64,000 nt of DNA from Gemmatimonadales bacterium (GTDB lineage: Bacteria > Gemmatimonadota > Gemmatimonadetes > Gemmatimonadales > GWC2-71-9): the NCBI GenBank assembly GCA_036505055.1, contig DASXUE010000049.1:11732-75731 (forward strand). Direction: 5' to 3'. Of the stretch, positions 19,301 to 36,083 are shown piece by piece (position 1 is the stretch's first letter; the number at the start of each line of letters is the position of its first letter). The notes under the pieces were generated by a model. The model had not been told where the DNA came from. It did no database searches and worked only from the letters and a program-made list of their open reading frames with translations. The translations under genes and the position numbers were made by a program.

Positions 19301-22300
19301 TCCGGATCGACGACGTGGTGGCCGTCGTGAAGCTGCCGCCCAGCGCGCTGTTCCCATCCACCTGGAGGGTGCCGTTGTTCACGAACGGCGCGTTGATCGT
19401 GCTCGCGCGCATCGCCAGCGTGTGCCCGACGAGGTTCGTGATCGTCCCGGGGCCGTTGACGGTCGCATTGACGAGCACGAGCGAGGTCACGCTGTCCGCG
19501 AACGACGGGGTGAAGTTCGCCGTTACGCCGCCGATCAGGGCGAGCGCCCCGGCGCCACCGATCGTCGCCCCGGCGTTGTAGTTGAATGTCCCGCTCGACA
19601 CCTTGAACGTGTCCGCCGCGCCGACGGTGACGCCGCCGGTGAGCGTGAACGTGCCGGTGCCGCCCTGATTCAGCGTGAAATTCCCGCCCGAGAAGTCGAG
19701 GGTGCCGCTCGACACGAGGCTCGGGTTGACCCCCGACTGGGTGATCGTGAGGTCGCCACTCGCGACGGTGATCGTACCGGTATTCGAGTCCACCGCGCTC
19801 GCGTGGGCCATCGTGAGGCCCTGGTTCGCCGCGGTGGCGACCGTTAGCGACCCCTGGTTCGAGAACTGGGCGTTGAGCTGCCGGGGACCGGCCGAGCCGG
19901 TCGGGGCGATGATGCTGGCGCCTGCCGCGTTGACGAGCGTTCCGGTCGTGACGTCGAGCCCGGCGCCGTAGGCCGCCGTCGAGTCCGTCAGCACGATTTG
20001 GCCGTTGTTCGTGAACCCGGAGGCCACCGTGAGCTGGGAGAAGCCGGTGGTACCATTCCCCTGGATCCGGATCGACGAGGTACCGCCCGTCGTCACGGCG
20101 CCGCCCAGGACGCTGCTCCCATCGACGAACAGCGAACCGTTGTTGACGAACGGCGCGTTGATCGTGCTCGCGCGCATCGACAATGACCGGCCGGCAGCGT
20201 TCGTGATTGTGCCGGGCCCGTTGAGCGTCGCGCTCTGCAGCACCAGACCCATCGAGTCGGTGGCGAAGCTCGGCGTGAAGTTCGCGGTCACGCCGCCCTT
20301 CAAGTGGATCGTTCCCAGGCCGCCGATCTGCGCGCCGGAGTTGTAATTGAACGTGCCGGCGTTGACCGCGAACGAGTCGGTCGCGCCGACAGTGAGCGAT
20401 CCGGTGAGTGTCACGGTGCCAGCGGCGGGCTGGCTGATGGACATCTTCCCGCCGCTCGCGCTGATCGATCCGCTGCTCGTGAAGACGAAGCTCGGCCCCG
20501 CCTGCGTGATGTTGAGCGCACCGCTCGAGATGACGATCGCGCCGGTGTTCGCGTGCCCCGCATCGCCGACCGGCGCCGCCAACGTGACCGCCTGTCCCGC
20601 CGCCGGCGCGACCGTGAACGTCCCCTGGTTGTCCAGCGAGGCGTTGATCTGCCGCGGTCCACCGGAGCCCTGGTTCGCGACGAGCAGCGCGCCCGCCGCG
20701 TTCACCAACGGGCCGCCCGCGACGTTGAGCCCCGCTCCATAGGCAGAGGTCGAGTCGGTCAGCGTGATCGTGCCGTTGTTCGTGAAGCCCGATCCGACGC
20801 TGAGCTGCGAGAAGCCCGTTGTGCCGTTGCCCTGCACCCGAATGAGCGAGGTGGCGGTCGTCGTGAGCCCGCTGCTCAGCGTGGTGCCGCCTTCGACGTA
20901 GAGCGTGCCGGCGTTCGCAAACGGCTTGGCGACGATGGTGCCGCGCAACTTGACAGTCCCAGCGTTCGTCAGCGTCCCGAGGCCGCTCAGCTGGCCCGGA
21001 TTGCGGACATCGAGCACGCCTCCGGCATTCACGTCTAGCGCACCACCGACGCCGAGTGCCTGGCTGCCGACGAGCAGCGTCTGCGTTCCGGAGGCACCAC
21101 CGATCTTCAGGCCGCCGATCGTATCGGCCACGTCGAAGGTGACGGTGTACGTCCCGGAGAGGTTGATGACCGCCGTGTCGCCCAGCGCGGGCACCGCACC
21201 GCCACTCCAGTTGGCCGGATTGCTCCAGTTACCGCCCGAGGCGTTGGCCCAGAACACGACGCTGGCCGGCGGGGCGACGTCGAACGCGGCACTCGTGTCC
21301 GGCGCGAGCCCGGTCCCCGTCGCCATCAGCGTGTAACCGGTCCCTGGCTGGTCGATGCGCAGGTCCGCGAACGAGGCGACGCCCGCGCTCGCTCCAACCG
21401 TGAGCGTGCCCGACAGCACGCCGCTCGACGGGTTGGTGCCGAGCGCCACGGTGATGCTGTCGCTGGCTGCGGACACGATGTTGCCGGCCGCGTCCGTGAC
21501 CGCGACCTGCACCGCCGGCGCGATCGCCGTCCCCGCGGCGGCTGCGCTCGGCTGCACCGTGAACGCGAGCGCGACCGGCGCACCCGGCGTGATCGCGAAA
21601 GCGACGCTGGTGTCGGGCACGAGGCCCGCCGACGTCGCGATCAGCCGGTAGCCGCTCGCCGCCTTGCCGAGCGAGAGCCCCGAGAAGGTGGCGACGCCGT
21701 TCACGGCGCTGACCGTCTTCGTGCCGGACAGCGTATCGCCGCCCGGATTCACGCCGAGGCTCAGCGTGATGCTGTTCGTCGCCGTCGGGAGCGGGTTGCC
21801 GCTTCCGTCGAGAACGGTGACCTGGATCGCCGGCGTGATCGCGCTGCCGGACGTGGCGCTCGAGGGCTCGACGGTGAACGCGATCCGCGCGGGCGCCGGT
21901 GCGATCGCCGTCGCCACGAACGTCGCGGTCGCGGTCGTGCCCACCAGCGTGGCGCGCACGGTATCGATCCCGGGCACCGCGCCGAGCTGGTAGGTGACCG
22001 ACGTCTGGCCGTTGGCGAGCGTCGTGGTCGTGTCGGCGCTGGGCGTGCCGTTGCCGAGGACGACGCTCCAGGCGACGCGCGCTCCGCTTACGACGTTGTT
22101 GAACGTGTCGCGCACCACGACGACGAAGGGCGCCGCCAGCACCTTGCCGATCGTGTCGGTCTGGCCGCTGCCCGACACGAGGGCGATGGTCTTGGCCGTC
22201 GCCGCCGTCGCGGTCGCGCCGAAGGTGACGGCGGGAATGGCGGGGAACGCCGGCACCGTCACCTGGAAGCTCTGGGCGCCGATCGCCGATCCCAGCGTGC

Positions 22301-23201
22301 CCGTCACCTGGGCCCGGCCGGCGCCATTGCTCGTGACGGTAGTGTCCGCCGGCGCGCCGCCTGCGGCGAGCGCGCGGAACCGCACACCCACGCCGCCCAC
22401 CGGGAGGTTGTCGCCCGCGCGGACTTCAACCTGGAGCGGCACTGAGAGCGCCCCACCGGCGGCGCCACTCTGCCCGTCGCCCGCGACCTTCACGACCTGC
22501 GTCGGCAGCGGCACGAACGTGGCGATGACGGAGTCGCTCGCGCCGCTGGGTGTGCGGGCGCGCACCGCGACCGAGGTGCGCGACGCCGGCGCGCGCAGCA
22601 CCCCGAAGCCGTTCACCCTGGCGATGGAGGAATCGCTCGTGCTCCAGGCGACGTAGAACTGCGTCACGGGAGCCCCGCCGCTGTCGAACGCCTGCACCTG
22701 GAAGCGGAGCGAATCGCTCCAATAGATGAAAGGCGCGGCCGGCACGATGTCGATGCTGTCCACTCCCGCCCCCGGACCGACATAGGTGTCGATGGGGATT
22801 TCCGTGGGAGTCGGGGTGTCGCCGCCGGTCGTGACCTCGATGAGGTCCGTGCCCTGGAAGAGCGGCTGTGTGCCGGAGAGCGCGATGACGGAGACGCTGA
22901 GCGTCTCTGGAGAGGAAAGGAGGGCGACGTGAATGTCGAGGTCCAAGGCCTCGGAATCGGGCGGCAGGGCGAGCGTCGTGTCGGCCAGGGTGTCAGGCGG
23001 TGGCCCCGGACGGACCACGACGATGCGGACCTGATCGATGGCCAGGCCGAAGCTCGCGAGCGCCGCCTCGGACGGCAGGACGGGCGCGAACACGACGCGT
23101 CCCTGCCCGGCGCCGGTGCCATGGGGCCCGAGCGCATCGCGGCAGGTCGCGACAGCGAGCCCGAGCCCTAGGGCGGCGAGCGCGCGAATGCGAGGCGACA
23201 C
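13314..23201 (-). CDS. Giant (3295 aa) lipoprotein-like surface protein. Order of domains: Ig-like domains, then 4 tandem ~255-aa beta-strand repeats, then parallel beta-helix region, then further Ig-like region, then C-terminal YVTN-type beta-propeller.
   Basis: GTG start. N-terminus MSPRIRALAALGLGLAVATC is lipobox-like. Big_2-like and Ig-like segments span aa ~145-645 (nt ~21267-22769). A PATR-like WANASGGNWSNPANW follows. Repeats span aa ~746-1700. Beta-helix-like segments span aa ~1810-2500 (nt ~15702-17774). YVTN repeats (RVYVVNTSSNNLSVFD, MIYVSNSAAGSVTVLD, KVYVANASNNIVHEID) span aa ~2990-3295 (nt 13317-14234). Confidence 0.85.
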   Translation of the reverse strand: MSPRIRALAALGLGLAVATCRDALGPHGTGAGQGRVVFAPVLPSEAALASFGLAIDQVRIVVVRPGPPPDTLADTTLALPPDSEALDLDIHVALLSSPETLSVSVIALSGTQPLFQGTDLIEVTTGGDTPTPTEIPIDTYVGPGAGVDSIDIVPAAPFIYWSDSLRFQVQAFDSGGAPVTQFYVAWSTSDSSIARVNGFGVLRAPASRTSVAVRARTPSGASDSVIATFVPLPTQVVKVAGDGQSGAAGGALSVPLQVEVRAGDNLPVGGVGVRFRALAAGGAPADTTVTSNGAGRAQVTGTLGSAIGAQSFQVTVPAFPAIPAVTFGATATAATAKTIALVSGSGQTDTIGKVLAAPFVVVVRDTFNNVVSGARVAWSVVLGNGTPSADTTTTLANGQTSVTYQLGAVPGIDTVRATLVGTTATATFVATAIAPAPARIAFTVEPSSATSGSAITPAIQVTVLDGSGNPLPTATNSITLSLGVNPGGDTLSGTKTVSAVNGVATFSGLSLGKAASGYRLIATSAGLVPDTSVAFAITPGAPVALAFTVQPSAAAAGTAIAPAVQVAVTDAAGNIVSAASDSITVALGTNPSSGVLSGTLTVGASAGVASFADLRIDQPGTGYTLMATGTGLAPDTSAAFDVAPPASVVFWANASGGNWSNPANWSGGAVPALGDTAVINLSGTYTVTFDVADTIGGLKIGGASGTQTLLVGSQALGVGGALDVNAGGVLDVRNPGQLSGLGTLTNAGTVKLRGTIVAKPFANAGTLYVEGGTTLSSGLTTTATSLIRVQGNGTTGFSQLSVGSGFTNNGTITLTDSTSAYGAGLNVAGGPLVNAAGALLVANQGSGGPRQINASLDNQGTFTVAPAAGQAVTLAAPVGDAGHANTGAIVISSGALNITQAGPSFVFTSSGSISASGGKMSISQPAAGTVTLTGSLTVGATDSFAVNAGTFNYNSGAQIGGLGTIHLKGGVTANFTPSFATDSMGLVLQSATLNGPGTITNAAGRSLSMRASTINAPFVNNGSLFVDGSSVLGGAVTTGGTSSIRIQGNGTTGFSQLTVASGFTNNGQIVLTDSTAAYGAGLDVTTGTLVNAAGASIIAPTGSAGPRQLNAQFSNQGSLTVATAANQGLTMAHASAVDSNTGTITVASGDLTITQSGVNPSLVSSGTLDFSGGNFTLNQGGTGTFTLTGGVTVGAADTFKVSSGTFNYNAGATIGGAGALALIGGVTANFTPSFADSVTSLVLVNATVNGPGTITNLVGHTLAMRASTINAPFVNNGTLQVDGNSALGGSFTTATTSSIRIQGNGTTGLSRLTVANGFTNNGQIQLTDSTAAYGAGLDVTSGVLINAVGAGIDASQGAAGPRQLNAQFYNRGTITVDVAPGQSLTVAHAAAADSNTGTIVVASGALNINQSGVSSLVHTGTLTLSGGGFTLSQAGGAFSTTGTISIAAGQTLALSGGTFNYASGTIGGRGNLALQSSVVATFTPSFTNDTLGLTLINATVNGPGAVTNDTGSSLLMRASTINAPFTNGGSLFVEGSSAVGGSFTTLPASLIRVRGNGITGFSRLTAASGFTNNGTIVLTDTTAAYGAGLDVTTGVLVNAAGATILADTGFAGGRQLDAMIDNQAGGALVVAVAPAQALTLSKTSASHRNAGTLTLASGTLTVAGGSSSFANDTTGTIEGLGIFNVNAVAFSNFGSVRPGLGGPGILSITGNYPASPTESLHIELGGTTPGAQYDRLAVSGSAALGGALQVSLINGFTPALGDTFTVMTFASRSGGFGALNLPLVGGGLALDTVVTANGLQLVVVAPLLVHAADITADETWSAAGTHVVSSYVRILNGATLTIADGATVKFDSAAGLQVGDSTLGQAGDLVMLGTPGSIHLTANSPTPGPGFWQGLEVQKAIGPQIWRNVDIEYAGGARANPFNEACILLVDPAGGVDLDSVHIRQCVHAGVHHFAGSLHMHRSQIDSVTGSGIHAEYVTGAPVLRLDSTTIRGSGQEGLFIGNGFVNLVGATGNRFVGNAVAGVHIFGSQLSGFGLQDSIAGNGFGAGGFGDTIVVDSGTVGFGVPNFTIFRQAAPYLFTGNLNVWSPTGVNLTLDSGVVMAFDTAASMSLGDFADSAGNSSGVSANLVSLGTAASPVVLRNRLGRPGWGGLYLGAQSGTPVVRHLRLVHGGYQASFGGGREVIVIGFFEPLNANLWVDAPIGSAPFAIDSVVSDSSAFHGIVVKRGPPLGFQVRDNLIRQSAGVGLVARVRRFNPADQISGNTLTGNLYALDIPADVLPGLLTNSLTGNNKDTLLLHGGTLAVSDTLPQLGSRWRVTQNVTVDSGAVLSVLPGDTVTFDFNVRLKIGGDVPSALNAVGTSGSPIVFTGPTGLFWGGLEFANLSGAGGVSHLIVERAGSAIPCGGDCLPILFAAIRYSNVSASGLILDAVTVRASPLVALDVDSVVGSPLTVQNSQFYQNALSPMIRSPSPLSLMIHGSDLYHYNGQIIQTATGGSDSLDATGNWWGDAAALYAGFEGNDSLGRAALDASPVRFDVIAGPHFSVGPAAQLTPATDTALTAAINAIVGDPDSIRVRVLDAEGRGVAGTTIQWGVSSGAFQDPGVPSDIGGRAGGVWLTSTAANLQFVQATVPGLIGSPVTWAAFLQPDPTSAVDFQLVFEGPLGDTLTQGQVAADSNSVTFTSSGRRGVLVTHARDTLGNVTHPSGFPDFCFTDVPNSGVCHNVGWFSPFYGSIDSVKADSVFFTVTAALPATMQIRAEYEGGTFVDSIVINMNVAPVGVRITQDTALYGSLCPSVGPYNILCRRTFQAQLVDSAGSPLPPNDVYHFNWTNEVAGDTTVTIDAQSGMMGEFVEVTAHANGTASLVTQQTSGSPLVPDRGTLAITVNQVIANIAVTPDTVSAGLGDTVTFTASATDQGGTPMPGAVGWRQDAPAGQYLTIIDYPSASSIRVRLDSTYPSYPRDAAVITAYTLTAQGDTILGAGVIYNPIIVNETGLGAFPQGSALDPVRNRVYVVNTSSNNLSVFDGDTDKLIQTIDVGSSPASVAVNPVTGMIYVSNSAAGSVTVLDGTRDPIGIVQTISVGLNTGGIAVDTVRNRVYVGSLLRVAEGDLPFLSTIDGATNTLMQTDTVRFSGGGASAPGAVAFNPLTERAFVVLRTDTLAFVDVAGLTIKAAFGDVGFALSGVAVNTQTNLVYVGSGGEVKVIDATPGVDTVFTNVFIGANSAQGMSVNEKRNKVYVANASNNIVHEIDGASNAYRTVIVGAFSDFPQSATVNPETGKVYVPHASALTVLKYFTP
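18102..20966 (-). repeat. Four tandem ~756-771-nt coding repeats inside the giant gene
   Basis: The landmark I(R)(V/I)(Q/R)GNG(T/I)TG(F/L)S(Q/R)L recurs at aa 787, 1044, 1299 and 1551 (nt ~20843, 20072, 19307, 18551). Copies 2 and 3 appear to be around 80% identical at protein level by eye over the stretches compared. Confidence 0.85.
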
Positions 23202-23274: not shown

Positions 23275-24426
23275 ATGCGTACTGCCCGCCGCACGCACGG
23301 CTTCACGGAATCGGTGATCCGGGGGATGACGCGCCTGGCGAACGAGCACGGCGCCATCAACCTGGCCCAGGGGTTCCCGAACTTCCCCGCCCCCGACGTC
23401 CTAAAGGAGGCGGCGGCCCGCGCCATCCGGGATGACGTCAACCAGTACGCCATCACCTGGGGCGCGAACCGCCTAAGGAACGCCCTCGCTGCGAAGTACC
23501 AAGATTGGTACCGCCTGGCCATCGATCCAATGACGCAGGTCACAGTCACTTGCGGGGCGACGGAAGCGATGGCCTCAGCGCTACTTGCCGTCGTCAACCC
23601 CGGTGACGAAGTCATCGTTTTTGAGCCTTTCTACGAGAACTACGGGCCCGACGCCATCCTGTGCGACGCCCGCCCCGTGTTCGTGCCGATGACCCCCGGG
23701 CAGCCGCTCGACCTGGACCGGCTGGCGGCGGCGTTCGGGCCCCGCACGCGGGCCATCATCGTCTGCACGCCCAATAACCCCACCGGGCGCGTGCTCAGCC
23801 GGGCGGAGCTCGAGAGCATCGCCGAGCTGTGCCGGCGCCACGACGCCTACGCCGTCACCGACGAGATCTACGAGCACATCTACTACGAGGGGGAGCACAT
23901 CCCCCTGGCCACGCTCCCCGAGATGGCCGAGCGGACGATCACGATCAGCGGTGCGTCGAAGACGTTCAGCGTGACGGGGTGGCGTATCGGCACGATCGTG
24001 GCGCCGCCCGACGTGACGGACGCGATCCGCAAGGTCCACGACTTTCTCACGGTGGGCGCGCCGGCGCCGCTGCAGGAAGGCGTGGCGGTCGCGCTCGAGA
24101 CGCTGGGCCGGGACTACTACGACGGGCTGGCGCGCGACTACCGAAGACGACGAGATATCCTTTGCGATGGGCTCGCGAGGACAGGTTTTAGGTGTCAGGC
24201 GCCGGAGGGAGCGTACTACGTGATCGCCGACTTCTCGGACCTTTCCGACCTGCCCGACGACAAGTTCGCCGAGTGGCTGACGGTGGAGCACGGCGTCGCG
24301 ACGGTGCCGGGAGGGAGCTTCTGCTCGCGTCCCGAGCTGGGCCGCACGTGGATTCGCTTCGCGTTCTGCAAAACCGACGCGATGCTGAAGGACGCCGTCG
24401 AGCGGCTCGGCCGCGTGAGGGACTAG
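23275..24426 (+). CDS. Class I/II PLP-dependent aminotransferase (YbdL / kynurenine-methionine aminotransferase-like)
   Basis: Motifs INLAQGFPNF, NQY, TPNNPTG and the Lys motif SGASKTFSVTGWRIG. Confidence 0.9.
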   Translation: MRTARRTHGFTESVIRGMTRLANEHGAINLAQGFPNFPAPDVLKEAAARAIRDDVNQYAITWGANRLRNALAAKYQDWYRLAIDPMTQVTVTCGATEAMASALLAVVNPGDEVIVFEPFYENYGPDAILCDARPVFVPMTPGQPLDLDRLAAAFGPRTRAIIVCTPNNPTGRVLSRAELESIAELCRRHDAYAVTDEIYEHIYYEGEHIPLATLPEMAERTITISGASKTFSVTGWRIGTIVAPPDVTDAIRKVHDFLTVGAPAPLQEGVAVALETLGRDYYDGLARDYRRRRDILCDGLARTGFRCQAPEGAYYVIADFSDLSDLPDDKFAEWLTVEHGVATVPGGSFCSRPELGRTWIRFAFCKTDAMLKDAVERLGRVRD

Positions 24427-26228
24427 GTCAGCGCGTCGTCCGCCTCACGCCGCCCCTCGAGTAACGCATCCACCTGAACGCCGATCTCGCGCGCGGCGCT
24501 CAAGTCGGCCGTCAGTCCGTCCACGCTTCCCACACCGCTGCGCAGCCGCAGCAGATCGAACCGGATCGTTTCGAGCGCACCGAGCGCCTCTCCCAGTCGT
24601 CCCTCCTGACCGTTGCCGCGGAGGCGTCGCACCCGCTCCTCGAGGTCGCGCACGACGGCGGGCAGGTCGCCCAAGCGGCTGCGGACGTCCTTAGGAAGTG
24701 CCTCGAACAGGTCGATCGCGGCGATCCCGAGGGCGACTTCGGTCGGACGGTCGGCAGCGGGGAGCGCCCCGGGGGTTCGCCTCAGACCGATACCCGCCAG
24801 TTTGAAGAGCCAACGTCCGATACGCCCGTTCCAGAACTTGAGCCGACGCTCGTCAGGATCCGCCAGTCGGCCGCGGCTGGCGGCGAGTGCCGCGATCCCA
24901 GTGGCGACCGCCGTCGCGCTCGAGAGTCCAAACAAGGCGAACACCGCGAGCACGGCGGGATAAGGCACCACAAAGGCGGCGGCGCCCGTAAGCGCCACGA
25001 GGCCGAGGGAGGCGTACATCTTGGAGCGCATGAGGCGCTCCATGCGGTTCGGACCCTCGCCGCTCGCGAACGCCTGCTCCTCGCGCCGTCGCGCGACCTC
25101 GAGCCCGAGGCCACGCACGAGATCATCGTGGCGGTACCCGGCCTGGAGCAGCCGGCGCAGGCTGCGCAGACCGAGCACGGCTGGTGAGGCCAGGGCCGCG
25201 GCGAACAGGACACCCCCGATGGCGATGACGCCCGCGCGGAATACCGCGGGAGGAGTCCCAGTGAACACCGCGGCGAGGAGCCGCTGCAACATGATGGGCA
25301 CGAGGAGCGCGGCGCCGATGAACGGCGCCACATACTGCGATCGGGACTGCAGGCGGCCCTCCGTGAGAAAGGCCCGGATCGGCACCGGCAGGTCGCGCCG
25401 CGCCTCGAGCGGCGCTCCGAGCGCCGCGGCCAGCTCCTCGCCGCTTTGGAAGCGTTGCGCCGGGTCTTTCTCGAGGCAGCGCTCGAGCGCGGCGAGGAGG
25501 GAGCCGGGCGCCCCCGGGACGACGAGCGGCGGCGGCTCCTTCCCGACCTGCTGGGCGAGCAGCCCCGCGACCGTCGGACTCGTGAACGGCAGACGCCCCG
25601 ACACCACGTAGTACCCGACCACGCCGAGCGAGTAGATATCGCTGCGCCCGTCCGTGGCTTCCCCCGTCGCTTGCTCGGGACTCATGTACTCGGGGGTGCC
25701 GACGAGCTCGTGCTCGCCCGACAGAGACGGCGTCTCGACCGACCGGGCGATGCCGAAATCGGCGACGAGGGCGCGGCCGGCTTCTCGCTCCAGCAGGATG
25801 TTGTCGGGCTTCACGTCGCGGTGCACCACGCCCTGCCCGTGGGCGTAGGCGAGGGCCCAGGCCACCTCGCGGAGGATGCGCGCCGCGTCGTGCGGCTTGA
25901 GGGCGCCCTCTCGCCTGACGCGCGCGCCCAGCGTTTCGCCCTCCACAAACGACATCACGAAGAACACGAAGGCGCCGATTTCCTCAACCGCGTGGATCGG
26001 CACGATGTTCGGGTGGGAGAGGCGGGCCGCCGTGCGCGCCTCCCGCTGGAAGCGCTCGCGCAACGCCGCCAGGTCGCGGTCAGGGGGCAGGAGCTTGATC
26101 GCGACGACGCGCTCGAGTCGCAGGTCGCGCGCCAGGTACACGATCCCCATGCCCCCGTGTCCCAGCTCGCGCTCGAGCGAGTAGCGGCCCGCGACGGCCG
26201 CCTGAAACTCGAGATCGACCGGCGTCAC
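24423..26228 (-). CDS. Membrane Ser/Thr protein kinase, paralog 1 (kinase + 4 TM + helical C-terminal domain)
   Basis: GTG at 26228 overlaps the stop of paralog 2 (GTGA). Kinase motifs GHGGMGIVY, VAIK, HRDVKPDNILL, ADFGIA, TPEYMSPE. The upstream part of the track ORF is Arg-rich and overlaps paralog 2. Confidence 0.85.
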   Translation of the reverse strand: MTPVDLEFQAAVAGRYSLERELGHGGMGIVYLARDLRLERVVAIKLLPPDRDLAALRERFQREARTAARLSHPNIVPIHAVEEIGAFVFFVMSFVEGETLGARVRREGALKPHDAARILREVAWALAYAHGQGVVHRDVKPDNILLEREAGRALVADFGIARSVETPSLSGEHELVGTPEYMSPEQATGEATDGRSDIYSLGVVGYYVVSGRLPFTSPTVAGLLAQQVGKEPPPLVVPGAPGSLLAALERCLEKDPAQRFQSGEELAAALGAPLEARRDLPVPIRAFLTEGRLQSRSQYVAPFIGAALLVPIMLQRLLAAVFTGTPPAVFRAGVIAIGGVLFAAALASPAVLGLRSLRRLLQAGYRHDDLVRGLGLEVARRREEQAFASGEGPNRMERLMRSKMYASLGLVALTGAAAFVVPYPAVLAVFALFGLSSATAVATGIAALAASRGRLADPDERRLKFWNGRIGRWLFKLAGIGLRRTPGALPAADRPTEVALGIAAIDLFEALPKDVRSRLGDLPAVVRDLEERVRRLRGNGQEGRLGEALGALETIRFDLLRLRSGVGSVDGLTADLSAAREIGVQVDALLEGRREADDALT

Positions 26229-28096
26229 GACCGGAGCTCCCGCTCCACTTCGAGTTGCCCCTCGAGCAACAGGTCGATGCCCTTGGCGACCTCGCGCGCC
26301 AGCCCTAGGTCCGTCGTCAGGCTGTGCACGCTGCCCGTGCCGGCATGCAGCCGCAGCAGATTCATGCGGATCGTTTCGAGCGCGGCGACGGCGTCGGCGA
26401 GCCGCTGCTGCACCAGCTCGCGCTCGGCGGTCAGCTCGGCGAGGATGCGGTCGTGGCGGGCGCTGATGGTCGGATCGGTACTGCTGGCTTTGGCGCCGCC
26501 CAGTACGTCTTGCAGCTCCTCGAGCCGGCGGCGCGTGCGTTGCGCGTCGTCCTCGAGCCGGTGCACGACGTCGGGAAGGTCGCGCAGCTGTCGCCGTGTC
26601 TCTTTGGGCAGTCCCTCGTACAGCTGCTCCGCCGCCATGCCGATCGACAGCTCGGTCGGCCGGTGGGTGAGGGGCGCGGGAATCGCCTTCGACCCCGCGA
26701 AGGCCCGCGCGATGCCGAAGAGCCAACGACCCAGGCGACCAGTCCACAGCCTGCCCCAGAACTCGGAGTCGACGTCGCGCCGCCGCTGCAGCATGACGAG
26801 CATCCCGAATCCCGAAGCGACGGCGATGGTGCCGAGGACGGCGGCAGGCAACGGGCTGCCCACGACCACCGCGCTCACGAACAGCCCGCCGAACGATGCG
26901 ACCGAGCTCCACTTGAGAATCCGCTCGAACAGCGACGGCCCATGGCCGACGCCGAACGCACGCTCCTCACGGCCGCGCTCGATCTCGGCCTTGAAAGCGA
27001 CGCTCAAGTCGCTGTGGCCGAAGCCGGACGTGAGGAGGCGCCGCGCCCGGTTCACGAGGACGGCGAGGGGGACCACGGTGTAGCCGCCGATGAGCGCGGC
27101 GAACCCGACCCCGACGGAGCCCGTCCACAAGCCCACGAGGGGCGCGACGAAGAGCATGGCGAACGGGTAGAGCAGCACGCCGCTGCCGTCGAGCCGGGCG
27201 TCGTGTTTGACGAACGCGCGCAGCGCCACCGGGAGCTCCCGGCGCTGTTCGAGGGCGTGGCTCAGCAGCTCGGCAAACGCCTCGGTCCCTGCCGGGCGCT
27301 CGGCGGGATCCTTGGCGAGACAGCGGTCGATCGCCTGCGCGAGGCGGCGCGGCACACCGGGACTCACGGCCGCGAGGGGCGGCGCGGGCTCGGTCACCTG
27401 CTTCGCCAGGACTTCGGTCGCCTTCGCCGCGTCGAACGGCAGGGTCGCCGAGAACGCGAAGTAGCCCACCACGCCGAGGGAGTAGAGGTCGCTGCGGGCA
27501 TCGACGGCCTCGCCCAGCGCCTGCTCCGGGCTCATGAATTCGGGCGTGCCGACGACCTCGCCGGCGACGAGGCCGCCGGCCCCTGCGACCACGCTGGCGA
27601 TCCCGAAGTCGGCGACCAGCACGCGTCCCGTCGCCTGCTCGAGCAGGATGTTGTCGGGCTTCACGTCGCGGTGGATCACGCCCTGCCCGTGCGCGTACGC
27701 GAGCGCCCAGGCGACGTCGCGCAACACGCGGGCGGCGTCGGACGGGGCCATCGGGCCGCGACGCCGCACGCGCTCGGTGAGCGTCTCTCCGTCCACGTAC
27801 GCCATGGCGAAAAACACGAATTCCCCGATCTCTTCGACCGCGTGGATGGGGATGATGTTGGGGTGGGAAAGCTTCGCGGCGGTGCGCGCCTCCCGCAGGA
27901 ACCGCTCGCGCAGCTTGGGGTCGGCGGTCTTGGAGGGAGGGAGGAGCTTGATCGCCACCGGGCGGTCGAGCCGCACCTCGCGAGCCAGGTAGACCACCCC
28001 CATCCCCCCGCGCCCCAGCTCGCGCTCCAGGGAATAGCGGCCGGCGAGGGCTGCCTGGAAATCAAGGAAGAGGGAATCGGGGCCAGGGTGCGCCAT
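26225..28096 (-). CDS. Membrane Ser/Thr protein kinase, paralog 2 (kinase + 4 TM + helical C-terminal domain)
   Basis: ATG at 28096 lies 5 nt after the paralog 3 stop. Kinase motifs GRGGMGVVY, VAIK, HRDVKPDNILL, ADFGIA, TPEFMSPE. Confidence 0.85.
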   Translation of the reverse strand: MAHPGPDSLFLDFQAALAGRYSLERELGRGGMGVVYLAREVRLDRPVAIKLLPPSKTADPKLRERFLREARTAAKLSHPNIIPIHAVEEIGEFVFFAMAYVDGETLTERVRRRGPMAPSDAARVLRDVAWALAYAHGQGVIHRDVKPDNILLEQATGRVLVADFGIASVVAGAGGLVAGEVVGTPEFMSPEQALGEAVDARSDLYSLGVVGYFAFSATLPFDAAKATEVLAKQVTEPAPPLAAVSPGVPRRLAQAIDRCLAKDPAERPAGTEAFAELLSHALEQRRELPVALRAFVKHDARLDGSGVLLYPFAMLFVAPLVGLWTGSVGVGFAALIGGYTVVPLAVLVNRARRLLTSGFGHSDLSVAFKAEIERGREERAFGVGHGPSLFERILKWSSVASFGGLFVSAVVVGSPLPAAVLGTIAVASGFGMLVMLQRRRDVDSEFWGRLWTGRLGRWLFGIARAFAGSKAIPAPLTHRPTELSIGMAAEQLYEGLPKETRRQLRDLPDVVHRLEDDAQRTRRRLEELQDVLGGAKASSTDPTISARHDRILAELTAERELVQQRLADAVAALETIRMNLLRLHAGTGSVHSLTTDLGLAREVAKGIDLLLEGQLEVERELRS

Positions 28097-28101
28097 GCCC
28101 C

Positions 28102-29577
28102 TTATTCTAACGCTCGATGAGCCCCCGCAAGGCGGAACAGCCAGCGTCCCGCCGCGCCGCGCCAGAAACGCAGCCGCCGCGCGCCGCGCGGATCGGTGCG
28201 CTGCTCCGTGCGGGCACGGGCCGCGGCCGCCGTCAGGAGGGCAAACGCCGCGGCGGCCGCCGCCGTTTGCCATTGGAGAGGAATGCGGCCTTCGGGCGAG
28301 AGCACCGCAACGGCCGCGGTGGCCAGGGCCAATCGCGACAGCCACGCCAGCACGCGCTCGAACGCCGGCGGGACGGCTCCGTAGACGAACGCGAGCTCTT
28401 CGAGCCGCCGCGCCCGCGCAGCATCGAGGGCCGATACCAGCTCCTCGCGCCGGTGACCGGCGTCGAGCAGCCACCGCACGCGGCGCACCGCGAACCAGCA
28501 CGGCAGCAGCGCCGCCAGCACGAGCGCCCCCCCCCCCAGGGCGCCCACCCGCCACGGGATGTCGGCGGCGTACAGCCAGGCGTAGAGCACCGCGGGCACG
28601 AGCCCCACGCCCACGAGCGTGACGTACCAGAAGGCGAGTGGGGCGAGGTGCTTGCCCCGCATCAGAAACGCCCGCACCGCGAGCGGGGGCGGAGGCGGCT
28701 CGACGGCATCGATGACGGCGCGCACCAGCGCGGCCGCGTCCGCGAACCGCGCCCACGGGTCTTTGGCGAGACAGCGATCGACGACTCGCGCGAGACGCGT
28801 GGGCACGCTCGGGGCCAGGCTAAGGAGCGGCGGCGCCGGGTCCGCGATGTGGAGCGCGAGCAGCGCCGCGTCGCTCGGCGCCTCGAACGGTAGCCGTCCC
28901 GCCAGCGCGTAGTACGCGACCACGCCCAGCGAATAGATGTCGCTCCGCTGATCCACCGGATCCCCGCGGGCCTGCTCCGGGCTCATGAACGCAGCGGTGC
29001 CGATCACGGCCGACCTGCCGGCGCGGGCGCCCCCCGTCCCGCCCCTCCCCCCCCGCCCCACCTGGGCAATGCCGAAGTCCGAAAGGAGGGTACGTCCGGT
29101 GGCGGCGTCGATGAGGATGTTGTCCGGCTTCACGTCTCGATGCACCACGCCGCGGCCATGCGCGTAGGCCAGCGCCTCGCCGATCTCCCGCAGAAGGCGC
29201 CCCGCGTCCCGCGGCGGGAGCGGACCCAGCCGCGCCACGCGCGCGGCCAGCGTCTCGCCGGCGACGTGGGCCATGGCGAAGATGACGAACTCCCCGCCCC
29301 CGGGCTCGTCCACTGCGAAGACGGGCACGATGTGGGGATGGCTGAGCCCCGCGGCCGTGCGCGCCTCGTGCAGGAAGCGTTGGCGGCACGCGGCGTCCAC
29401 GCTCAGGTCCGGGGTCAGCACCTTGATGGCGACGGCGCGGTCGAGCGCCCGCTCGCGCGCCAGGTAGACGACGCCCATCCCGCCGCGGCCGATCGGCTGT
29501 TGCAGATCGTAGCGGTCGGCGAGGGCTCGGCGCAGCGCGGGGAAGGCGGGGTCGGTGGAGTGGCGCGCGAACGTCAT
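28102..29577 (-). CDS. Membrane Ser/Thr protein kinase, paralog 3 (kinase + 4 TM, lacks the C-terminal helical domain)
   Basis: ATG at 29577 (MTFARHSTDP...). Kinase motifs GRGGMGVVY, VAIK, HRDVKPDNILI, SDFGIA, TAAFMSPE. A Gly/Arg-rich insert sits in the activation segment. The protein ends right after the conserved FWRGAAGRWLFRLAG motif. Confidence 0.8.
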   Translation of the reverse strand: MTFARHSTDPAFPALRRALADRYDLQQPIGRGGMGVVYLARERALDRAVAIKVLTPDLSVDAACRQRFLHEARTAAGLSHPHIVPVFAVDEPGGGEFVIFAMAHVAGETLAARVARLGPLPPRDAGRLLREIGEALAYAHGRGVVHRDVKPDNILIDAATGRTLLSDFGIAQVGRGGRGGTGGARAGRSAVIGTAAFMSPEQARGDPVDQRSDIYSLGVVAYYALAGRLPFEAPSDAALLALHIADPAPPLLSLAPSVPTRLARVVDRCLAKDPWARFADAAALVRAVIDAVEPPPPPLAVRAFLMRGKHLAPLAFWYVTLVGVGLVPAVLYAWLYAADIPWRVGALGGGALVLAALLPCWFAVRRVRWLLDAGHRREELVSALDAARARRLEELAFVYGAVPPAFERVLAWLSRLALATAAVAVLSPEGRIPLQWQTAAAAAAFALLTAAAARARTEQRTDPRGARRLRFWRGAAGRWLFRLAGAHRALE

Positions 29578-29659
29578 CGGCGCACGTGCATACCCCGCGC
29601 CTGATGCGCAAGTTCGCGGCGCGACTGGACAGGGTCCCGAGTCGAGTCCAAGATAGCGC

Positions 29660-31837
29660 ATGACCGACCATCAGCCGTACGTACCCGCGTCGCAATCGCC
29701 TGCCGAACTCACGCCTCGCGCGCTGATGCTCGGCGTCGCTCTCGGGCTGATCTTCGGGGCCTCCAACGTCTACCTCGCGCTGAAAATCGGCCTCACGGTG
29801 AGCGCGTCGATTCCGATCGCGGTGTTGTCGATCACGATCTTCCGCGCCCTCGGCCGCGCCACGATCCTGGAGAACAACATCGTCCAGACCACGGGGTCGG
29901 CGGCCGATTCGGTGTCGGCCGGCGTCGTGTTCACGATCCCCGCGATTCTCCTGATGGGCTACGACCTGGACATCTCCCGGGTCGCGATCCTGGCCGTGGC
30001 CGGCGGGTTGATGGGCGTGTTGATGATGATCCCGCTGCGCCGCGCGCTGATCGTGAAGGAGCACGGGAACCTCCCCTACCCCGAGGGCACGGCCTGCGCC
30101 GAGGTGCTGATCGCGGGAGAGCGCGGCGGCGTGCACGCCAGGACGGTGTTCCAGGCGTTCGGGATCGCGTTTCTCTACAAGTTCCTGATGACGGCGCTGA
30201 AGCTGTGGCAGGAGTACCCGGGCCGCGTGCTCCGTTCGTACCAGAGCGCCGAAGTGCGCGTGGAAGCGAGCCCCGAGCTGCTGGGCGTCGGGTACATCAT
30301 CGGGCCGCGCATCGCGGGCTACCTGTTCGCCGGCGGGTGCCTCGCGTACGTCGTGTTGATGCCGGCGATCAAGTTGTTCGGCAGCGCGATGACGGAGCCG
30401 ATGTTCGGCACCACCAAGCTGATTCGCGACATGAACGCCGGCGAGATCCGGGCCGCCTTCGTCTTCTACATCGGCGCGGGCGCGGTGGCGACCGCGGGGA
30501 TCATCGCGCTGGCACGTTCTCTCCCGACGATCGTCTCGGCCTTCCGCGCCGGCTTCGCCGATATGAAGGCGAGCCCCGTGGGCCAGGCATTGGCGGCGCG
30601 CCTCCGCACCGACGACGACCTGCCGGTCGGCATCACCGTGTTCGGCTCGGTCGGGCTCGCGATCGTGCTCGCGTTCCTGCCCCAGATCGGCGTGAACCTG
30701 CTCGGCGCCGTGCTCATCATCATCTTCGGGTTCTTTTTCACGACCGTTTCGTCGCGGATCTGCGGGCAGGTCGGCAGCTCGGCCAACCCCATCTCCGGCA
30801 TGACGATCGCCGCCCTGATCGCGATCTCCTTTATCTTCTTGCTGCTCGGCTGGACGCAGATCGACGACCGCGTGCGGGCGATCTCGGTCGCCTGCGTGAT
30901 CGCGGTCGCGGTCGCGAACGGCGGCAACACGTCGCAAGACCTGAAGACCGGATTCCTCGTAGGGGCGACGCCGCGACGCCAGCAAATCGCGATTCTCGTC
31001 GGGGCGATCGGATCGGCGCTGGCGGTCGGCTGGACGCTGACCTTCCTGAACAACGCGTATCGATATCAGGTCCCCGAGACCCGGCCGGGATTCGTGGCCC
31101 CGGCGAGCGGCAGCACCCCGGACGGCAACGTCGTCGTGCTCGACGAAACGATGTCGCACTTCGGCGTCGGCGGCACAGACTCGATCGATACGAACACCTA
31201 CCAGGTCGTGCGCGTGTACCTGCCGACGCAGGGCGTACCTCCCGGGAAATACCTCGTCGATCCGGCCTCGCACGAGATCCGCTACGTCGTGGATCCGGGC
31301 ATCGGCGGACGGTTCCGCGAGTACGCCGGGCACGAGCTCAAGCGGCTCGACTCCCCCAAGGCGACCCTGATGGCGCTGATCACGGATGGGATCCTCACGC
31401 ATCGCCTGCCGTGGGCGCTGGTGCTGATCGGCGTGTTCCTCACCATCGCGATCGAGCTGATGGGGGTGTCCTCCCTCCCGGTAGCCGTGGGCGTGTATCT
31501 GCCGCTCACGACGTCCGCGGGCATGTTCGCTGGCGGCATCGTGCGGTGGCTGGTCGAGCGGCGGGTCCAGTCCGACAATCGCTCGATGGCCGAGGTCGAG
31601 TCGGGGCCCGGCGTGCTGTTCGCGAGCGGCCTGATCGCCGGCGGGGCGATCTGCGGGATCGCCGTCGCGGCGATCGCCGGCTGGGGCAGCGCGCACGGCA
31701 AGGCGGCCGACTGGCTGGCCGAAGCGGCAGGCCTGTACCATGCGCTGGGCGCCGTCGCGACGTCGAGTCTCGTCGGCCTCGCGCTGTTCGCCGTCCTGGG
31801 CGTCCTGCTCTACCGGACCGGCCTGCGGAAAACCTGA
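29660..31837 (+). CDS. OPT-family oligopeptide transporter
   Basis: 725-aa polytopic protein. N-terminal ELTPRALMLGVALGLIFGASNVYLALKIGLTVSASIP is typical of the OPT superfamily. Confidence 0.85.
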   Translation: MTDHQPYVPASQSPAELTPRALMLGVALGLIFGASNVYLALKIGLTVSASIPIAVLSITIFRALGRATILENNIVQTTGSAADSVSAGVVFTIPAILLMGYDLDISRVAILAVAGGLMGVLMMIPLRRALIVKEHGNLPYPEGTACAEVLIAGERGGVHARTVFQAFGIAFLYKFLMTALKLWQEYPGRVLRSYQSAEVRVEASPELLGVGYIIGPRIAGYLFAGGCLAYVVLMPAIKLFGSAMTEPMFGTTKLIRDMNAGEIRAAFVFYIGAGAVATAGIIALARSLPTIVSAFRAGFADMKASPVGQALAARLRTDDDLPVGITVFGSVGLAIVLAFLPQIGVNLLGAVLIIIFGFFFTTVSSRICGQVGSSANPISGMTIAALIAISFIFLLLGWTQIDDRVRAISVACVIAVAVANGGNTSQDLKTGFLVGATPRRQQIAILVGAIGSALAVGWTLTFLNNAYRYQVPETRPGFVAPASGSTPDGNVVVLDETMSHFGVGGTDSIDTNTYQVVRVYLPTQGVPPGKYLVDPASHEIRYVVDPGIGGRFREYAGHELKRLDSPKATLMALITDGILTHRLPWALVLIGVFLTIAIELMGVSSLPVAVGVYLPLTTSAGMFAGGIVRWLVERRVQSDNRSMAEVESGPGVLFASGLIAGGAICGIAVAAIAGWGSAHGKAADWLAEAAGLYHALGAVATSSLVGLALFAVLGVLLYRTGLRKT

Positions 31838-36019: not shown

Positions 36020-36083
36020 GAACCGGGGAATCTAACCGCGGCGGCGCTTCCGGTCACGCCGGGCGGCCGCTAGAGTTAGCGAC

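What the first reader, a model, noticed from the sequence alone, without database searches (positions are those of the whole stretch)
24423..29577. Operon of three tandem paralogous membrane Ser/Thr kinases sharing an unnamed 4-TM + helical output/sensor module
Three consecutive minus-strand genes are separated by a GTGA overlap and a 5-nt gap. Each encodes an N-terminal Hanks-type kinase with intact VAIK/HRD/DFG motifs, then a conserved linker (R(A/I)FL) and four TM helices. Between TM2 and TM3 sits a conserved cytoplasmic helix (LLxxG(Y/F/H)xxxDL...ERxL), and a conserved FWxGRxGRWLFxxAG motif follows. In paralogs 1 and 2 there is also a ~150-aa helical tail ending ...ALETIR(F/M)xLLRLxxGxGSVxxLTxDLxxAREI. 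With an even TM count and tiny outer loops, both ends are cytoplasmic. That argues for intramembrane sensing or a partner protein rather than a periplasmic ligand domain. I cannot assign the C-terminal module to any named domain. A triplicated, translationally coupled kinase array is uncommon.
Basis: partly seen in the sequence, partly recalled or inferred. Interest (0 to 1): 0.6.

Follow-up and report, generated by a model that had tools for sequence, protein, structure and literature searches.

The report
Three tandem four-pass membrane Ser/Thr kinases
Three neighbouring genes of a soil Gemmatimonadales bacterium encode intact Ser/Thr protein kinases that share an unnamed four-pass membrane and helical-tail module specific to this lineage; the genes are real and conserved, but what they sense or control is unknown.

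Summary
Three minus-strand genes are packed as described: K1 (28102-29577, 491 aa), K2 (26225-28096, 623 aa) and K3 (24423-26228, 601 aa), with a 5-nt gap and a GTGA overlap. Each has a complete Hanks kinase domain followed by a 4-TM module. K2 and K3 also carry a ~120-155 aa helical tail.

The C-terminal module matches nothing in Pfam, NCBIfam, PDB sequences or PDB folds, although the AlphaFold model is confident (pLDDT 90).

This is not a recent triplication. The modules are only 30-38% identical, and each paralog has its own orthologs under purifying selection with every catalytic residue kept. The module was found only fused to a kinase, and every named source is Gemmatimonadota.

The array sits in a conserved slot between a divergent OPT peptide transporter gene and a convergent aminotransferase gene. 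It varies from one to three copies among species, and K2 is present in every locus recovered.

The membrane helices and outer loops are the least conserved parts, and the cytoplasmic faces the most. That argues against periplasmic or intramembrane ligand sensing. It favours a membrane-tethered cytoplasmic scaffold for dimerisation or partner binding.

Verdict: a new, lineage-specific variant of a bacterial membrane Ser/Thr kinase, of moderate interest, with function unknown.

The parts
28102..29577 (-). K1: first gene of the array, 491 aa. Hanks kinase plus 4-TM module, with no helical tail.
   Evidence: ORF and junctions. Pfam Pkinase 144.8 bits. The same 491-aa call appears in NCBI as HEY3280288.1. 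K1-clade orthologs are uniformly tail-less.
28741..29511 (-). K1 kinase domain (residues 23-279).
   Evidence: Pfam PF00069 E=4.3e-42. Catalytic residues are intact.
28105..28686 (-). K1 membrane module (residues 298-491): juxtamembrane helix, TM1-2, cytoplasmic helical insert, TM3-4 and the FWRGAAGRWLF helix.
   Evidence: Alignments A1 and A2, hydropathy and 33 homologs found with the K1 module.
26225..28096 (-). K2: second gene, 623 aa. Kinase, 4-TM module and ~155-aa helical tail. It is the core member, present in every related locus recovered.
   Evidence: It has 286+ homologs, and all 120 listed are K2 orthologs. Locus survey. NCBI HEY3280287.1.
27275..28036 (-). K2 kinase domain (residues 21-274).
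   Evidence: Pfam PF00069 E=3.4e-47. The AlphaFold full-length model shows a kinase fold with pLDDT ~90.
26693..27235 (-). K2 membrane module (residues 288-468): LPVALRAF helix, TM1, TM2, RRLL...REERAF cytoplasmic helices, TM3, TM4 and LWTGRLGRWLF amphipathic helices.
   Evidence: AlphaFold model, pLDDT 90.3. Hydropathy, charge and hydrophobic moment. Conservation profile.
26228..26692 (-). K2 cytoplasmic tail (residues 469-623): a flexible linker, the HRPTE helix, then three long helices ending in ALETIRMNLLRLHAGTGSV...
   Evidence: AlphaFold helices 192-207, 220-247, 255-298 and 303-335 of the module model. The linker at residues 473-480 of the full-length model has low pLDDT. This is the most conserved non-kinase segment, 0.74-0.85.
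24423..26228 (-). K3: third gene, 601 aa, with a GTG start overlapping the K2 stop. Kinase, 4-TM module and ~118-aa tail.
   Evidence: The search returned 37 hits, 34 of them at 61-82% identity. K3 forms a clade in the tree.
25446..26183 (-). K3 kinase domain (residues 16-261).
   Evidence: Pfam PF00069 E=1.4e-46.
24780..25391 (-). K3 membrane module (residues 280-483).
   Evidence: Alignment A2, hydropathy and tblastn cross-matches.
24426..24779 (-). K3 cytoplasmic tail (residues 484-601).
   Evidence: 38% identical to the K2 tail. Alignment.
29660..31837 (+). Divergently transcribed OPT-family oligopeptide transporter gene, the conserved upstream neighbour of the array.
   Evidence: Pfam OPT E=1.7e-83. 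It flanks the array in most related loci.
23275..24426 (+). Convergent class I/II aminotransferase gene, the conserved downstream neighbour. Its stop abuts the K3 stop.
   Evidence: Pfam Aminotran_1_2 E=1.9e-64. Synteny.
29625..29662 (+). Conserved promoter-like element in the 82-bp divergent intergenic region (CTGGACAG-N17-AAGATA-GCGC-ATG). It probably drives the OPT gene.
   Evidence: Anchored comparison of 56 loci; about 35 carry CTGGACA-N17/18-CAGATT-like-N4-9-ATG. The position in the window is unique.

Best explanation
K1, K2 and K3 are three old paralogs of one family of polytopic membrane Hanks-type Ser/Thr kinases, seen here only in Gemmatimonadota.

**Architecture (shown).** Each protein has a catalytically complete kinase domain in the cytoplasm. 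A conserved amphipathic juxtamembrane helix (LPVxLRxF) tethers it to a bundle of two TM hairpins. The outer loops are 2-12 residues long, so the N and C termini and all conserved surfaces lie in the cytoplasm. Those surfaces are:
- the helical insert between TM2 and TM3 (RRLLxxG(Y/F/H)...ERRREE..F);
- the strongly amphipathic helix after TM4 (FWxGRxGRWLF);
- in K2 and K3, a flexibly linked bundle of three long helices.

**Mechanism (inferred).** The 4-TM module and tail act as a membrane-anchored oligomerisation and docking scaffold, not as a ligand-binding sensor. They would bring kinase domains together for trans-autophosphorylation. They would couple activity to a cue read on the cytoplasmic side of the membrane, such as a partner protein or the state of the inner leaflet. 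K2 would be the core subunit. The tail-less K1 and the tailed K3 would be accessory paralogs that pair with K2 through the shared module. This would diversify input or substrate range in the species that carry them.

**Expression and context (inferred).** The three genes are co-transcribed, and K2 and K3 are translationally coupled. The conserved position beside an OPT peptide transporter gene and an aminotransferase gene hints at a link with peptide and amino-acid nutrition. That link is unproven.
For: **Shown.**
- Gene structure and packing.
- Kinase domains above Pfam threshold. All catalytic residues are invariant in 126 genes of the three clades.
- Four TM helices with N-in/C-in topology, from hydropathy, AlphaFold helices and charge bias.
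- Confident all-helical model of the module (pLDDT 90.3). The full-length model has three rigid bodies joined by low-confidence linkers (pTM 0.59).
- No match to any Pfam or NCBIfam family, any PDB sequence or any PDB or BFVD fold.
- The module is rare. It hits 299 clusters among 1.84 billion representatives. It is always behind a kinase, because the short hits are fragments that start inside the kinase C-lobe.
- The best 80 of 306 genome loci are Gemmatimonadales or Gemmatimonadota MAGs, apart from five contigs binned or labelled otherwise. Named distant members are also Gemmatimonadota.
- Three old clades in the tree. dN/dS is 0.08-0.27 for the kinase domains and 0.17-0.42 for the modules.
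- Every K1-type and K3-type gene seen lies within a few kb of a K2-type gene, nearly always directly beside it, including loci retrieved through K1 or K3 themselves. The one exception is L004, whose contig begins inside K3.

**Supporting the scaffold reading.**
- Conservation is lowest in TM helices (0.39-0.49) and outer loops (0.30-0.34). It is highest in the cytoplasmic segments (0.60-0.85; tail helix B 0.85; kinase 0.77).
- The post-TM4 helix RLGRWLFGIARAFA has a hydrophobic moment of 0.70.

**From established knowledge.** Hanks kinases such as PknB are activated by dimerisation-driven trans-autophosphorylation.
Against: - No experiment or multimer prediction supports homo- or hetero-oligomerisation. 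Only monomer models could be made, and their coordinates and PAE were not available.
- The constant adjacency of K1 and K3 to K2 may only reflect their origin by tandem duplication. The locus sample was also drawn mostly with a K2 query.
- Low conservation of TM helices does not exclude sensing of a bulk membrane property.
- No cognate phosphatase (PP2C) or FHA-domain gene lies in the window, so no substrate or pathway can be named.
- OPT and aminotransferase synteny is lost in the most divergent loci, for example L046, L049, L068 and L076. It may therefore be inherited gene order only.
- dS is near saturation (0.6-1.4), so the dN/dS values are rough.
Confidence: 0.45

Rival explanations
1. 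Intramembrane or periplasmic signal sensing. The four TM helices and short outer loops would themselves bind a lipid, lipid-linked intermediate or small molecule. They would transmit this through the juxtamembrane helices to the kinase.
For: - The 4-TM bundle is modelled with high confidence.
- One residue inside the membrane, Pro343 in TM2, is nearly invariant.
- The conserved amphipathic helices at the membrane surface could report on bilayer state.
Against: - TM helices and outer loops are the least conserved parts of the protein (0.30-0.49), against 0.60-0.85 for the cytoplasmic segments.
- The outer loops are only 2-12 residues long and vary in length.
- No polar or charged intramembrane residue is conserved.
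Confidence: 0.2
2. Passive anchor. The module only holds constitutively active kinases at the membrane and the tail is a generic coiled coil. Regulation would be entirely at the level of expression or of substrates.
For: - Only coiled-coil noise is found for the tail in PDB and Pfam.
- TM sequences are weakly constrained.
Against: - A simple anchor does not need about 200-330 residues.
- Specific cytoplasmic motifs are kept invariant or nearly so across clades that are only ~30% identical. These are R293, F295, G358, E377-E378, W451, G456, ALExIR and LLRL.
- The modules are under purifying selection (dN/dS 0.17-0.42).
Confidence: 0.15
3. Transporter-coupled sensing. The kinases would dock on the neighbouring OPT peptide transporter and report its transport activity. 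This would work like the intramembrane-sensing histidine kinases that read an ABC transporter, and would tune peptide and amino-acid catabolism.
For: - The OPT gene is the divergent neighbour in 50 of the 57 loci that extend far enough upstream. The intergenic region is short (82 bp in the window) and carries a conserved promoter-like element.
- The window is rich in peptidases (M28 twice, M20 twice, M42), and an aminotransferase gene flanks the array.
- The kinases lack any extracytoplasmic domain of their own.
Against: - The evidence is synteny within one order only, which may be inherited gene order.
- The most divergent family members lack the OPT neighbour.
- No interaction evidence of any kind exists.
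Confidence: 0.12
4. Anti-phage defence kinases of the PD-T4-6, MADS6 or PglW kind.
For: PADLOC models of PD-T4-6 (up to 290 bits), mad6 and PglW, and NCBIfam MADS6 and PglW, all match the three proteins.
Against: - Every such match covers only the generic kinase domain (residues ~10-295).
- The NCBIfam scores are far below the curated cut-offs (148-170 against 460; 88-99 against 990).
- The genes sit in a chromosomal slot conserved across an order, between housekeeping genes, with no other defence or mobile-element genes found.
- Base composition is uniform.
Confidence: 0.03
5. Recent strain-specific tandem duplication with decaying copies.
For: - K1 lacks the tail.
- In this genome K1 has lost the last ~14 residues that K1 orthologs share, apparently through a small out-of-frame deletion.
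- A few related assemblies carry frameshifted copies: L003 K3, L043 and L047 K2.
Against: - The paralog modules are only 30-38% identical and the kinase domains 57-65%.
- Each paralog has its own orthologs in many species.
- The K1-K2-K3 order recurs in L006, L012, L030, L061, L003 and L085.
- All catalytic residues are kept, and dN/dS is well below 1.
- Tail-lessness is a conserved trait of the whole K1 clade.
Confidence: 0.02

Closest known systems
Single-pass receptor-like Hanks kinases of Actinobacteria and Firmicutes (PknB/PrkC/Stk1, and the pknA-pknB tandem of Mycobacterium tuberculosis)
   Same: - An N-terminal cytoplasmic Hanks kinase domain. The best NCBIfam match is PknB_PASTA_kin over the kinase part (276-288 bits), and the best PDB sequence matches are PknA and PknB.
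- A juxtamembrane linker followed by a membrane anchor.
- Adjacent paralogous kinase genes in one operon.
- Presumed activation by dimerisation and trans-autophosphorylation (established for PknB).
   Different: - Four TM helices instead of one.
- No extracytoplasmic PASTA or other sensor domain.
- The C terminus returns to the cytoplasm and carries a long helical bundle.
- The score is below the family cut-off of 450.
- No PP2C phosphatase, FHA or cell-division genes alongside.
Intramembrane-sensing histidine kinases (BceS and LiaS type)
   Same: - Membrane kinases whose extracytoplasmic loops are too short to bind ligands.
- All conserved surfaces are cytoplasmic or at the membrane interface.
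- Signal input is thought to come from a partner membrane protein.

This is a resemblance in logic only.
   Different: - A different catalytic superfamily. Pfam finds no HisKA or HATPase_c domain, only Pkinase.
- Two TM hairpins rather than one.
- No partner has been shown.
PD-T4-6 single-gene defence Ser/Thr kinases (PADLOC)
   Same: The kinase domain matches these HMMs strongly.
   Different: - The match is confined to the kinase domain.
- The C-terminal architecture is different.
- The genes sit in a conserved housekeeping context rather than a defence island.

Membership tests
Hanks-type (eukaryotic-like) Ser/Thr protein kinases, Pfam PF00069 | Protein kinase domain scoring above the Pfam gathering threshold. 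| tested here: met
   144.8, 161.5 and 159.4 bits against a cut-off of 31.7.
Hanks-type (eukaryotic-like) Ser/Thr protein kinases, Pfam PF00069 | Complete catalytic motifs: glycine loop, VAIK Lys, alpha-C Glu, HRDxKxxN, DFG and (A/S)PE. | tested here: met
   All are present in K1-K3. The catalytic Lys, Glu, HRD, Asn and DFG are invariant in 126 family genes.
Hanks-type (eukaryotic-like) Ser/Thr protein kinases, Pfam PF00069 | Phosphotransfer to Ser/Thr of protein substrates. | not testable with these tools
   This needs an in vitro kinase assay or phosphoproteomics.
PknB/Stk1 PASTA kinases (NCBIfam NF033483) | Whole-protein score above the curated cut-off. | tested here: not met
   275.7, 287.8 and 279.3 bits against a cut-off of 450. 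The match covers the kinase domain only.
PknB/Stk1 PASTA kinases (NCBIfam NF033483) | A single TM helix followed by extracellular PASTA repeats. | tested here: not met
   No PASTA hit in Pfam. There are four TM helices with outer loops of 2-12 residues.
Defence kinases (PADLOC PD-T4-6; NCBIfam MADS6 NF047741; BREX PglW NF033442) | Full-length match or a score above the curated cut-off. | tested here: not met
   MADS6 scores 148-170 against 460, and PglW 88-99 against 990. PADLOC matches cover residues ~10-295 only.
Defence kinases (PADLOC PD-T4-6; NCBIfam MADS6 NF047741; BREX PglW NF033442) | Location with other system components, or in a variable defence island. | tested here: not met
   The slot between the OPT and aminotransferase genes is conserved across Gemmatimonadales. 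Of the 44 loci with both flanks, 33 have the aminotransferase gene directly after the array and 11 have an insertion of 0.3-4.6 kb. The neighbours in the window are peptidases, transporters and biosynthetic genes.
Intramembrane-sensing histidine kinases (BceS/LiaS type) | HisKA and HATPase_c catalytic core. | tested here: not met
   No such Pfam hit at E<=1. This is an analogy of logic only.
The family defined here: Gemmatimonadota 4-TM Hanks kinases (unnamed) | The module lies directly behind a Hanks kinase. It carries LPVxLRxF, two TM hairpins, an RRLLxxG...REE..F insert and a (F/L)WxGxxGxW-type helix. | tested here: met
   All three window proteins have it. A profile of the module retrieves 299 clusters, all kinase-fused where the N terminus is present.
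The family defined here: Gemmatimonadota 4-TM Hanks kinases (unnamed) | Helical tail with RPTE...LP...ALExIR..LLRL..G.G....T.DL..AR. | tested here: met
   Met by K2 and K3. It is absent from K1 and from the whole K1 clade.

The most novel reading that the evidence does not exclude
K2, together with K1 and K3 where present, forms a hetero-oligomeric membrane kinase complex with no ligand-binding domain of its own. It would read the activity of a partner membrane protein, most plausibly the OPT peptide transporter encoded divergently next door. This would be a Ser/Thr-kinase counterpart of transporter-coupled 'flux sensing' by intramembrane histidine kinases, built on a fold with no solved relative. 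Its output would control peptide and amino-acid use in Gemmatimonadales.
Probability: 0.1. Interest if true: 0.7.

Novelty: new variant of a known kind. Interest (0 to 1): 0.4.

Why it matters
Gemmatimonadota are abundant in soils but are almost unstudied at the level of signalling. This locus defines a coherent, lineage-specific family of Hanks kinases. Its whole regulatory part is a four-pass membrane bundle plus a cytoplasmic helical bundle, with no Pfam model and no solved structural relative. It offers three things:
- a candidate new domain family for curation;
- a natural series of one-, two- and three-kinase arrays in the same chromosomal slot, useful for studying how paralogous kinases specialise or pair;
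- a possible example of a bacterial Ser/Thr kinase that senses from the cytoplasmic side of the membrane or through a partner.

None of this touches a long-standing open question directly, and many bacterial kinases carry uncharacterised C-terminal regions. The interest is therefore moderate.

Tried and rejected
**Searches that found nothing or were swamped**
- Pfam, NCBIfam and PADLOC scans of the full proteins found only the kinase domain.
- A Pfam scan of 25 diverse C-terminal modules gave scattered coiled-coil noise, with no family hit by more than 2 members.
- The first PDB sequence profile (A3) was swamped by the kinase C-lobe. After trimming (A4), only keratin or designed coiled-coil noise remained at E>=0.02.
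- Foldseek of the module model against PDB gave a best E of 0.55 and TM<=0.21. Against BFVD the best E was 0.58.
- Three literature searches returned results but nothing on this family or on Gemmatimonadota kinases. Two more failed on query syntax.

- DNA for the nearest K1 ortholog P0305 could not be fetched.

**Hypotheses checked and dropped**
- Stand-alone modules without a kinase: the short hits all begin inside the kinase C-lobe and are contig-edge fragments.
- Pseudokinase paralogs: rejected.
- Recent duplication or decay: rejected.
- The invariant Thr of HRPTE as an FHA-docking phosphosite: the +3 position is Ala or Ser and the motif sits at a helix N-cap. This rests on recalled FHA preferences and the idea was left as untested.

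**Uninformative scan**
- The sigma-70 promoter and terminator consensus scan of 24000-30000 gave 0 promoter hits and terminator hits at background level.


Full report
**1. What is in the sequence**

The window is 67-73% G+C throughout. Exact look-up places it on a 134-kb contig of a Gemmatimonadales MAG. There the genes are annotated only as 'serine/threonine-protein kinase' (HEY3280287 and HEY3280288). They are flanked by an OPT transporter gene (HEY3280289) and an aminotransferase gene (HEY3280285).

Three minus-strand ORFs fill 24423-29577:
- K1: 28102-29577, ATG start, 491 aa.
- K2: 26225-28096, ATG start, 623 aa. It starts 5 nt (GGGGC) after the K1 TAA stop.
- K3: 24423-26228, 601 aa. 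Its GTG start overlaps the K2 TGA stop (GTGA).

Upstream, 82 bp away, the OPT gene (29660-31837) runs in the opposite direction. Downstream, the aminotransferase gene (23275-24426) converges on K3, and the two stop codons abut. The three kinase genes are therefore a self-contained unit. No sigma-70-type promoter and no above-background terminator signal lies inside it.

**2. The proteins**

- **Kinase domain.** Each protein has a Pfam Pkinase domain far above threshold (145-162 bits against 31.7) at residues ~16-280, and nothing else from Pfam or NCBIfam. All catalytic motifs are intact.
- **Four TM helices.** After the kinase come a short conserved helix (LPV(A/P)(L/I)RAF) and four hydrophobic helices arranged as two hairpins.
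- **Topology.** The outer loops are 2-12 residues long and carry 0-1 Lys/Arg. The three inner segments carry 4, 7-11 and 8.
- **Tail.** K2 and K3 continue with a 155- or 118-residue tail. K1 stops about 25 residues after TM4.

**3. Structure prediction**

With a 77-sequence alignment, AlphaFold2 models the K2 module (residues 288-623) at mean pLDDT 90.3 as entirely helical:
- a juxtamembrane helix;
- TM1;
- TM2, extended into the cytoplasm;
- a 23-residue cytoplasmic helix;
- TM3 and TM4;
- two amphipathic helices carrying LWTGRLGRWLF;
- a low-confidence linker;
- the RPTE helix;
- three long helices of 28, 44 and 33 residues.

The full-length model has pLDDT 84.5 and pTM 0.59. It shows a kinase, a membrane module and a tail as separately confident bodies. 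These are joined by low-confidence stretches, and the activation loop is disordered. The helix RLGRWLFGIARAFA has a hydrophobic moment of 0.70, typical of a helix lying in the membrane interface.

**4. Is the module a known domain?**

No match was found by any route that could be run:
- Pfam and NCBIfam on the three proteins.
- Pfam on 25 divergent family members, where no family was hit by more than two.
- A trimmed family profile against all PDB sequences, which gave only coiled-coil noise at E>=0.02.
- Foldseek of the model against PDB (best E 0.55, TM-score <=0.21) and against BFVD.

**5. How widespread is it?**

- A profile of the shared 4-TM part, searched exhaustively against 1.84 billion cluster representatives, found 299 proteins at E<=1e-3.
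- Wherever the N terminus is present, the module sits at about residues 285-490 behind a Hanks kinase.
- The shorter hits all start inside the kinase C-lobe (MSPEQA...) and are contig-edge fragments. No kinase-free version was seen.
- A scan of one genome per species (185,579 species) found 306 loci. The best 80 are Gemmatimonadales or Gemmatimonadota MAGs.
- Five exceptions are binned or labelled elsewhere. Three short contigs binned to other phyla keep the OPT or aminotransferase neighbour, and two are labelled only 'bacterium'.
- Named distant members are also Gemmatimonadota.

**6. Age and state of the three copies**

- **Divergence.** The C-terminal modules are only 30-38% identical to each other, and the kinase domains 57-65%.
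- **Orthologs.** Each paralog has its own orthologs. K2 has more than 286 hits, and all 120 listed are closer to K2 than to K1 or K3. The K3 search returned 37 hits, 34 of them at 61-82% identity. The K1 search returned 33 hits at 41-100% identity, mostly 41-57%.
- **Tree.** A neighbour-joining tree of 126 complete genes from 84 related loci plus the window resolves three clades.
- **K1 clade.** Every member is tail-less and ends 10-30 residues after the FWxGxxGR motif, so the missing tail is a conserved trait and not decay.
- **Catalytic residues.** The catalytic Lys, Glu, HRD, Asn, DFG and SPE Glu are invariant in all 126 genes. The few substitutions seen lie in glycine-loop and other positions of K1-clade members.
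- **Selection.** Against four other species with the same three-gene order, dN/dS is as tabulated below. dS is near saturation, so these values are rough.
- **Intactness.** Of 132 genes examined, only a handful of assemblies show frameshifts.

| Paralog | dN/dS, kinase domain | dN/dS, module |
|---|---|---|
| K1 | 0.19-0.27 | 0.35-0.42 |
| K2 | 0.08-0.15 | 0.25-0.33 |
| K3 | 0.17-0.20 | 0.17-0.21 |

**7. The array is variable within a conserved slot**

In most of the loci the array lies between the divergent OPT gene and the convergent aminotransferase gene. Among the 44 loci where both flanks are present, counting the window, the arrays are as follows:

| Array | Loci |
|---|---|
| K1-K2 | 16 |
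| K2 alone | 11 |
| K2-K1 | 7 |
| K2-K3 | 4 |
| K1-K2-K3 (window, L012, L030, L061) | 4 |
| K2-K2 | 1 |
| K1-K3-K2 | 1 |

- L006, L003 and L085 add three more K1-K2-K3 cases, and L038 has a different three-copy array.
- K2 is the constant member, although the sample was drawn mainly with K2 as query.
- In the loci retrieved through K1 or K3 themselves (L003, L085, L086), the accessory gene again sits next to a K2-type gene. In L004 the contig begins inside K3, so nothing can be said.
- The most divergent relatives (L046, L049, L068, L069, L076, L084) lack the OPT neighbour, and all of these lack the aminotransferase neighbour too.

**8. Where the constraint lies**

Column conservation across the 126 genes gives these values:

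| Segment | Conservation |
|---|---|
| Kinase domain | 0.77 |
| Juxtamembrane helix | 0.72 |
| TM2-TM3 insert | 0.63 |
| Post-TM4 helices | 0.60 |
| Tail helices | 0.74-0.85 |
| Four TM helices | 0.39-0.49 |
| Outer loops | 0.30-0.34 |

- The invariant or nearly invariant non-kinase residues are P289, R293, F295, G358, E377, E378, W451, G456, the RP of HRPTE, and ALExIR/LLRL. All of these are cytoplasmic or interfacial.
- The one exception within the membrane is P343 in TM2.
- This pattern argues against a ligand site within the membrane or in the periplasm. It points to conserved protein-protein or protein-membrane-surface contacts on the cytoplasmic side.

**9. Most likely mechanism**

- **Shown.** Three co-oriented, tightly packed genes encode catalytically complete, polytopic N-in/C-in membrane Hanks kinases of one lineage-specific family.
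- **Inferred.** The module and tail act as a membrane-tethered oligomerisation and docking scaffold. The scaffold controls trans-autophosphorylation, the established activation route of Hanks kinases such as PknB. It would respond to a cytoplasm-side cue or a partner protein.
- **Inferred.** K2 is the core, and K1 and K3 are accessory partners.
- **Weak lead.** The link to peptide nutrition rests on the OPT neighbour, the aminotransferase gene, and five peptidase genes in the window.
- **Missing pieces.** No PP2C phosphatase or FHA gene is nearby, so neither substrate nor pathway can be named.

I put about 0.45 on the scaffold or partner reading. The sensing, anchor-only and transporter-coupled readings are live rivals. 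Defence function and recent duplication are effectively excluded.

**10. Comparison with known systems and verdict**

- The kinase domains are ordinary members of the Hanks superfamily, nearest to PknA and PknB.
- The proteins fail the membership tests for PASTA kinases. Their scores are below the cut-off, they have no PASTA repeats, and they have four TM helices rather than one.
- They also fail the tests for defence kinases. Only the kinase domain matches, the scores are below the cut-offs, and the genomic context is conserved housekeeping.
- In logic they resemble intramembrane-sensing histidine kinases, but they share no domain with them.
- This is a new, lineage-specific variant of a known kind of protein. 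It carries a candidate new domain family and an unusual variable tandem array. Interest is moderate (0.4): real, clean and undescribed, but without a function and not bearing on a major open question.

Noticed in passing
window 29625-29662 (+), and the equivalent position in about 35 of 56 related loci: A conserved promoter-like element lies directly upstream of the OPT transporter start codon: CTGGACA(C/G)-N17/18-(C/A)A(G/A)AT(T/A)-N4-9-ATG. The -10-like hexamer is only 4-10 nt from the ATG, so the OPT mRNA would be leaderless or nearly so. The consensus sigma-70 scan did not flag it.
   Followed up: partly
window 28102-28140 (-), 3' end of K1: K1 in this genome lacks the C-terminal motif shared by K1-clade orthologs (...P-x-[IV]-V-x-[IL]-L-x-x-L-E-T-P-A). 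The +1 frame at the gene's end reads ...LRGLIER*, like the nearest ortholog's ...VKLIER. This suggests a small out-of-frame deletion that replaced the last ~14 residues. A fragment with the identical end exists in an independent JGI record, P0158.
   Followed up: partly
window 437-2110, 7493-8827, 32727-33797, 36036-37331, 41572-42840: The 64-kb window is unusually dense in metallopeptidase genes: M28, M20, M42, M28 with PDZ, and M20. These lie around the OPT peptide transporter and aminotransferase genes, giving the region the look of a peptide-utilisation neighbourhood.
   Followed up: no
window 13314-23201 (-): A single 3295-aa ORF lies two genes downstream of the array. By eye, its translation has Ig-like repeats at the N terminus, three long near-identical internal repeats, and a C-terminal region that looks like beta-propeller repeats. 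Related loci carry a large Big_1 or PKD-repeat protein at the same position. No domain search was run on the window copy.
   Followed up: no
window 54494-56437 (-) and 54551-56173 (+): Two long overlapping ORFs on opposite strands both have gene-like codon-position G+C. The minus-strand one (647 aa) has no Pfam hit. Which strand is coding was not resolved.
   Followed up: no
loci L017, L034, L048 (genome contigs): Short contigs (2.5-5.5 kb) carry this kinase locus with the Gemmatimonadales-type OPT or aminotransferase neighbour. They are binned in public MAGs labelled Rokuibacteriota, Chloroflexi and Eisenbacteria, and are probably mis-binned. In one search, L034 gives the same tblastn match pattern as the Gemmatimonadetes contig L033.
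   Followed up: no
locus L038 1439-7029; L073 1829-7050; L028 5188-8888: Other three- or two-copy arrays have different make-up. L038 has two divergent tailed copies upstream of K2. L073 has the order K1-K3-K2. L028 has two K2-clade copies. Together they show repeated gain, loss and reordering within the slot.
   Followed up: partly
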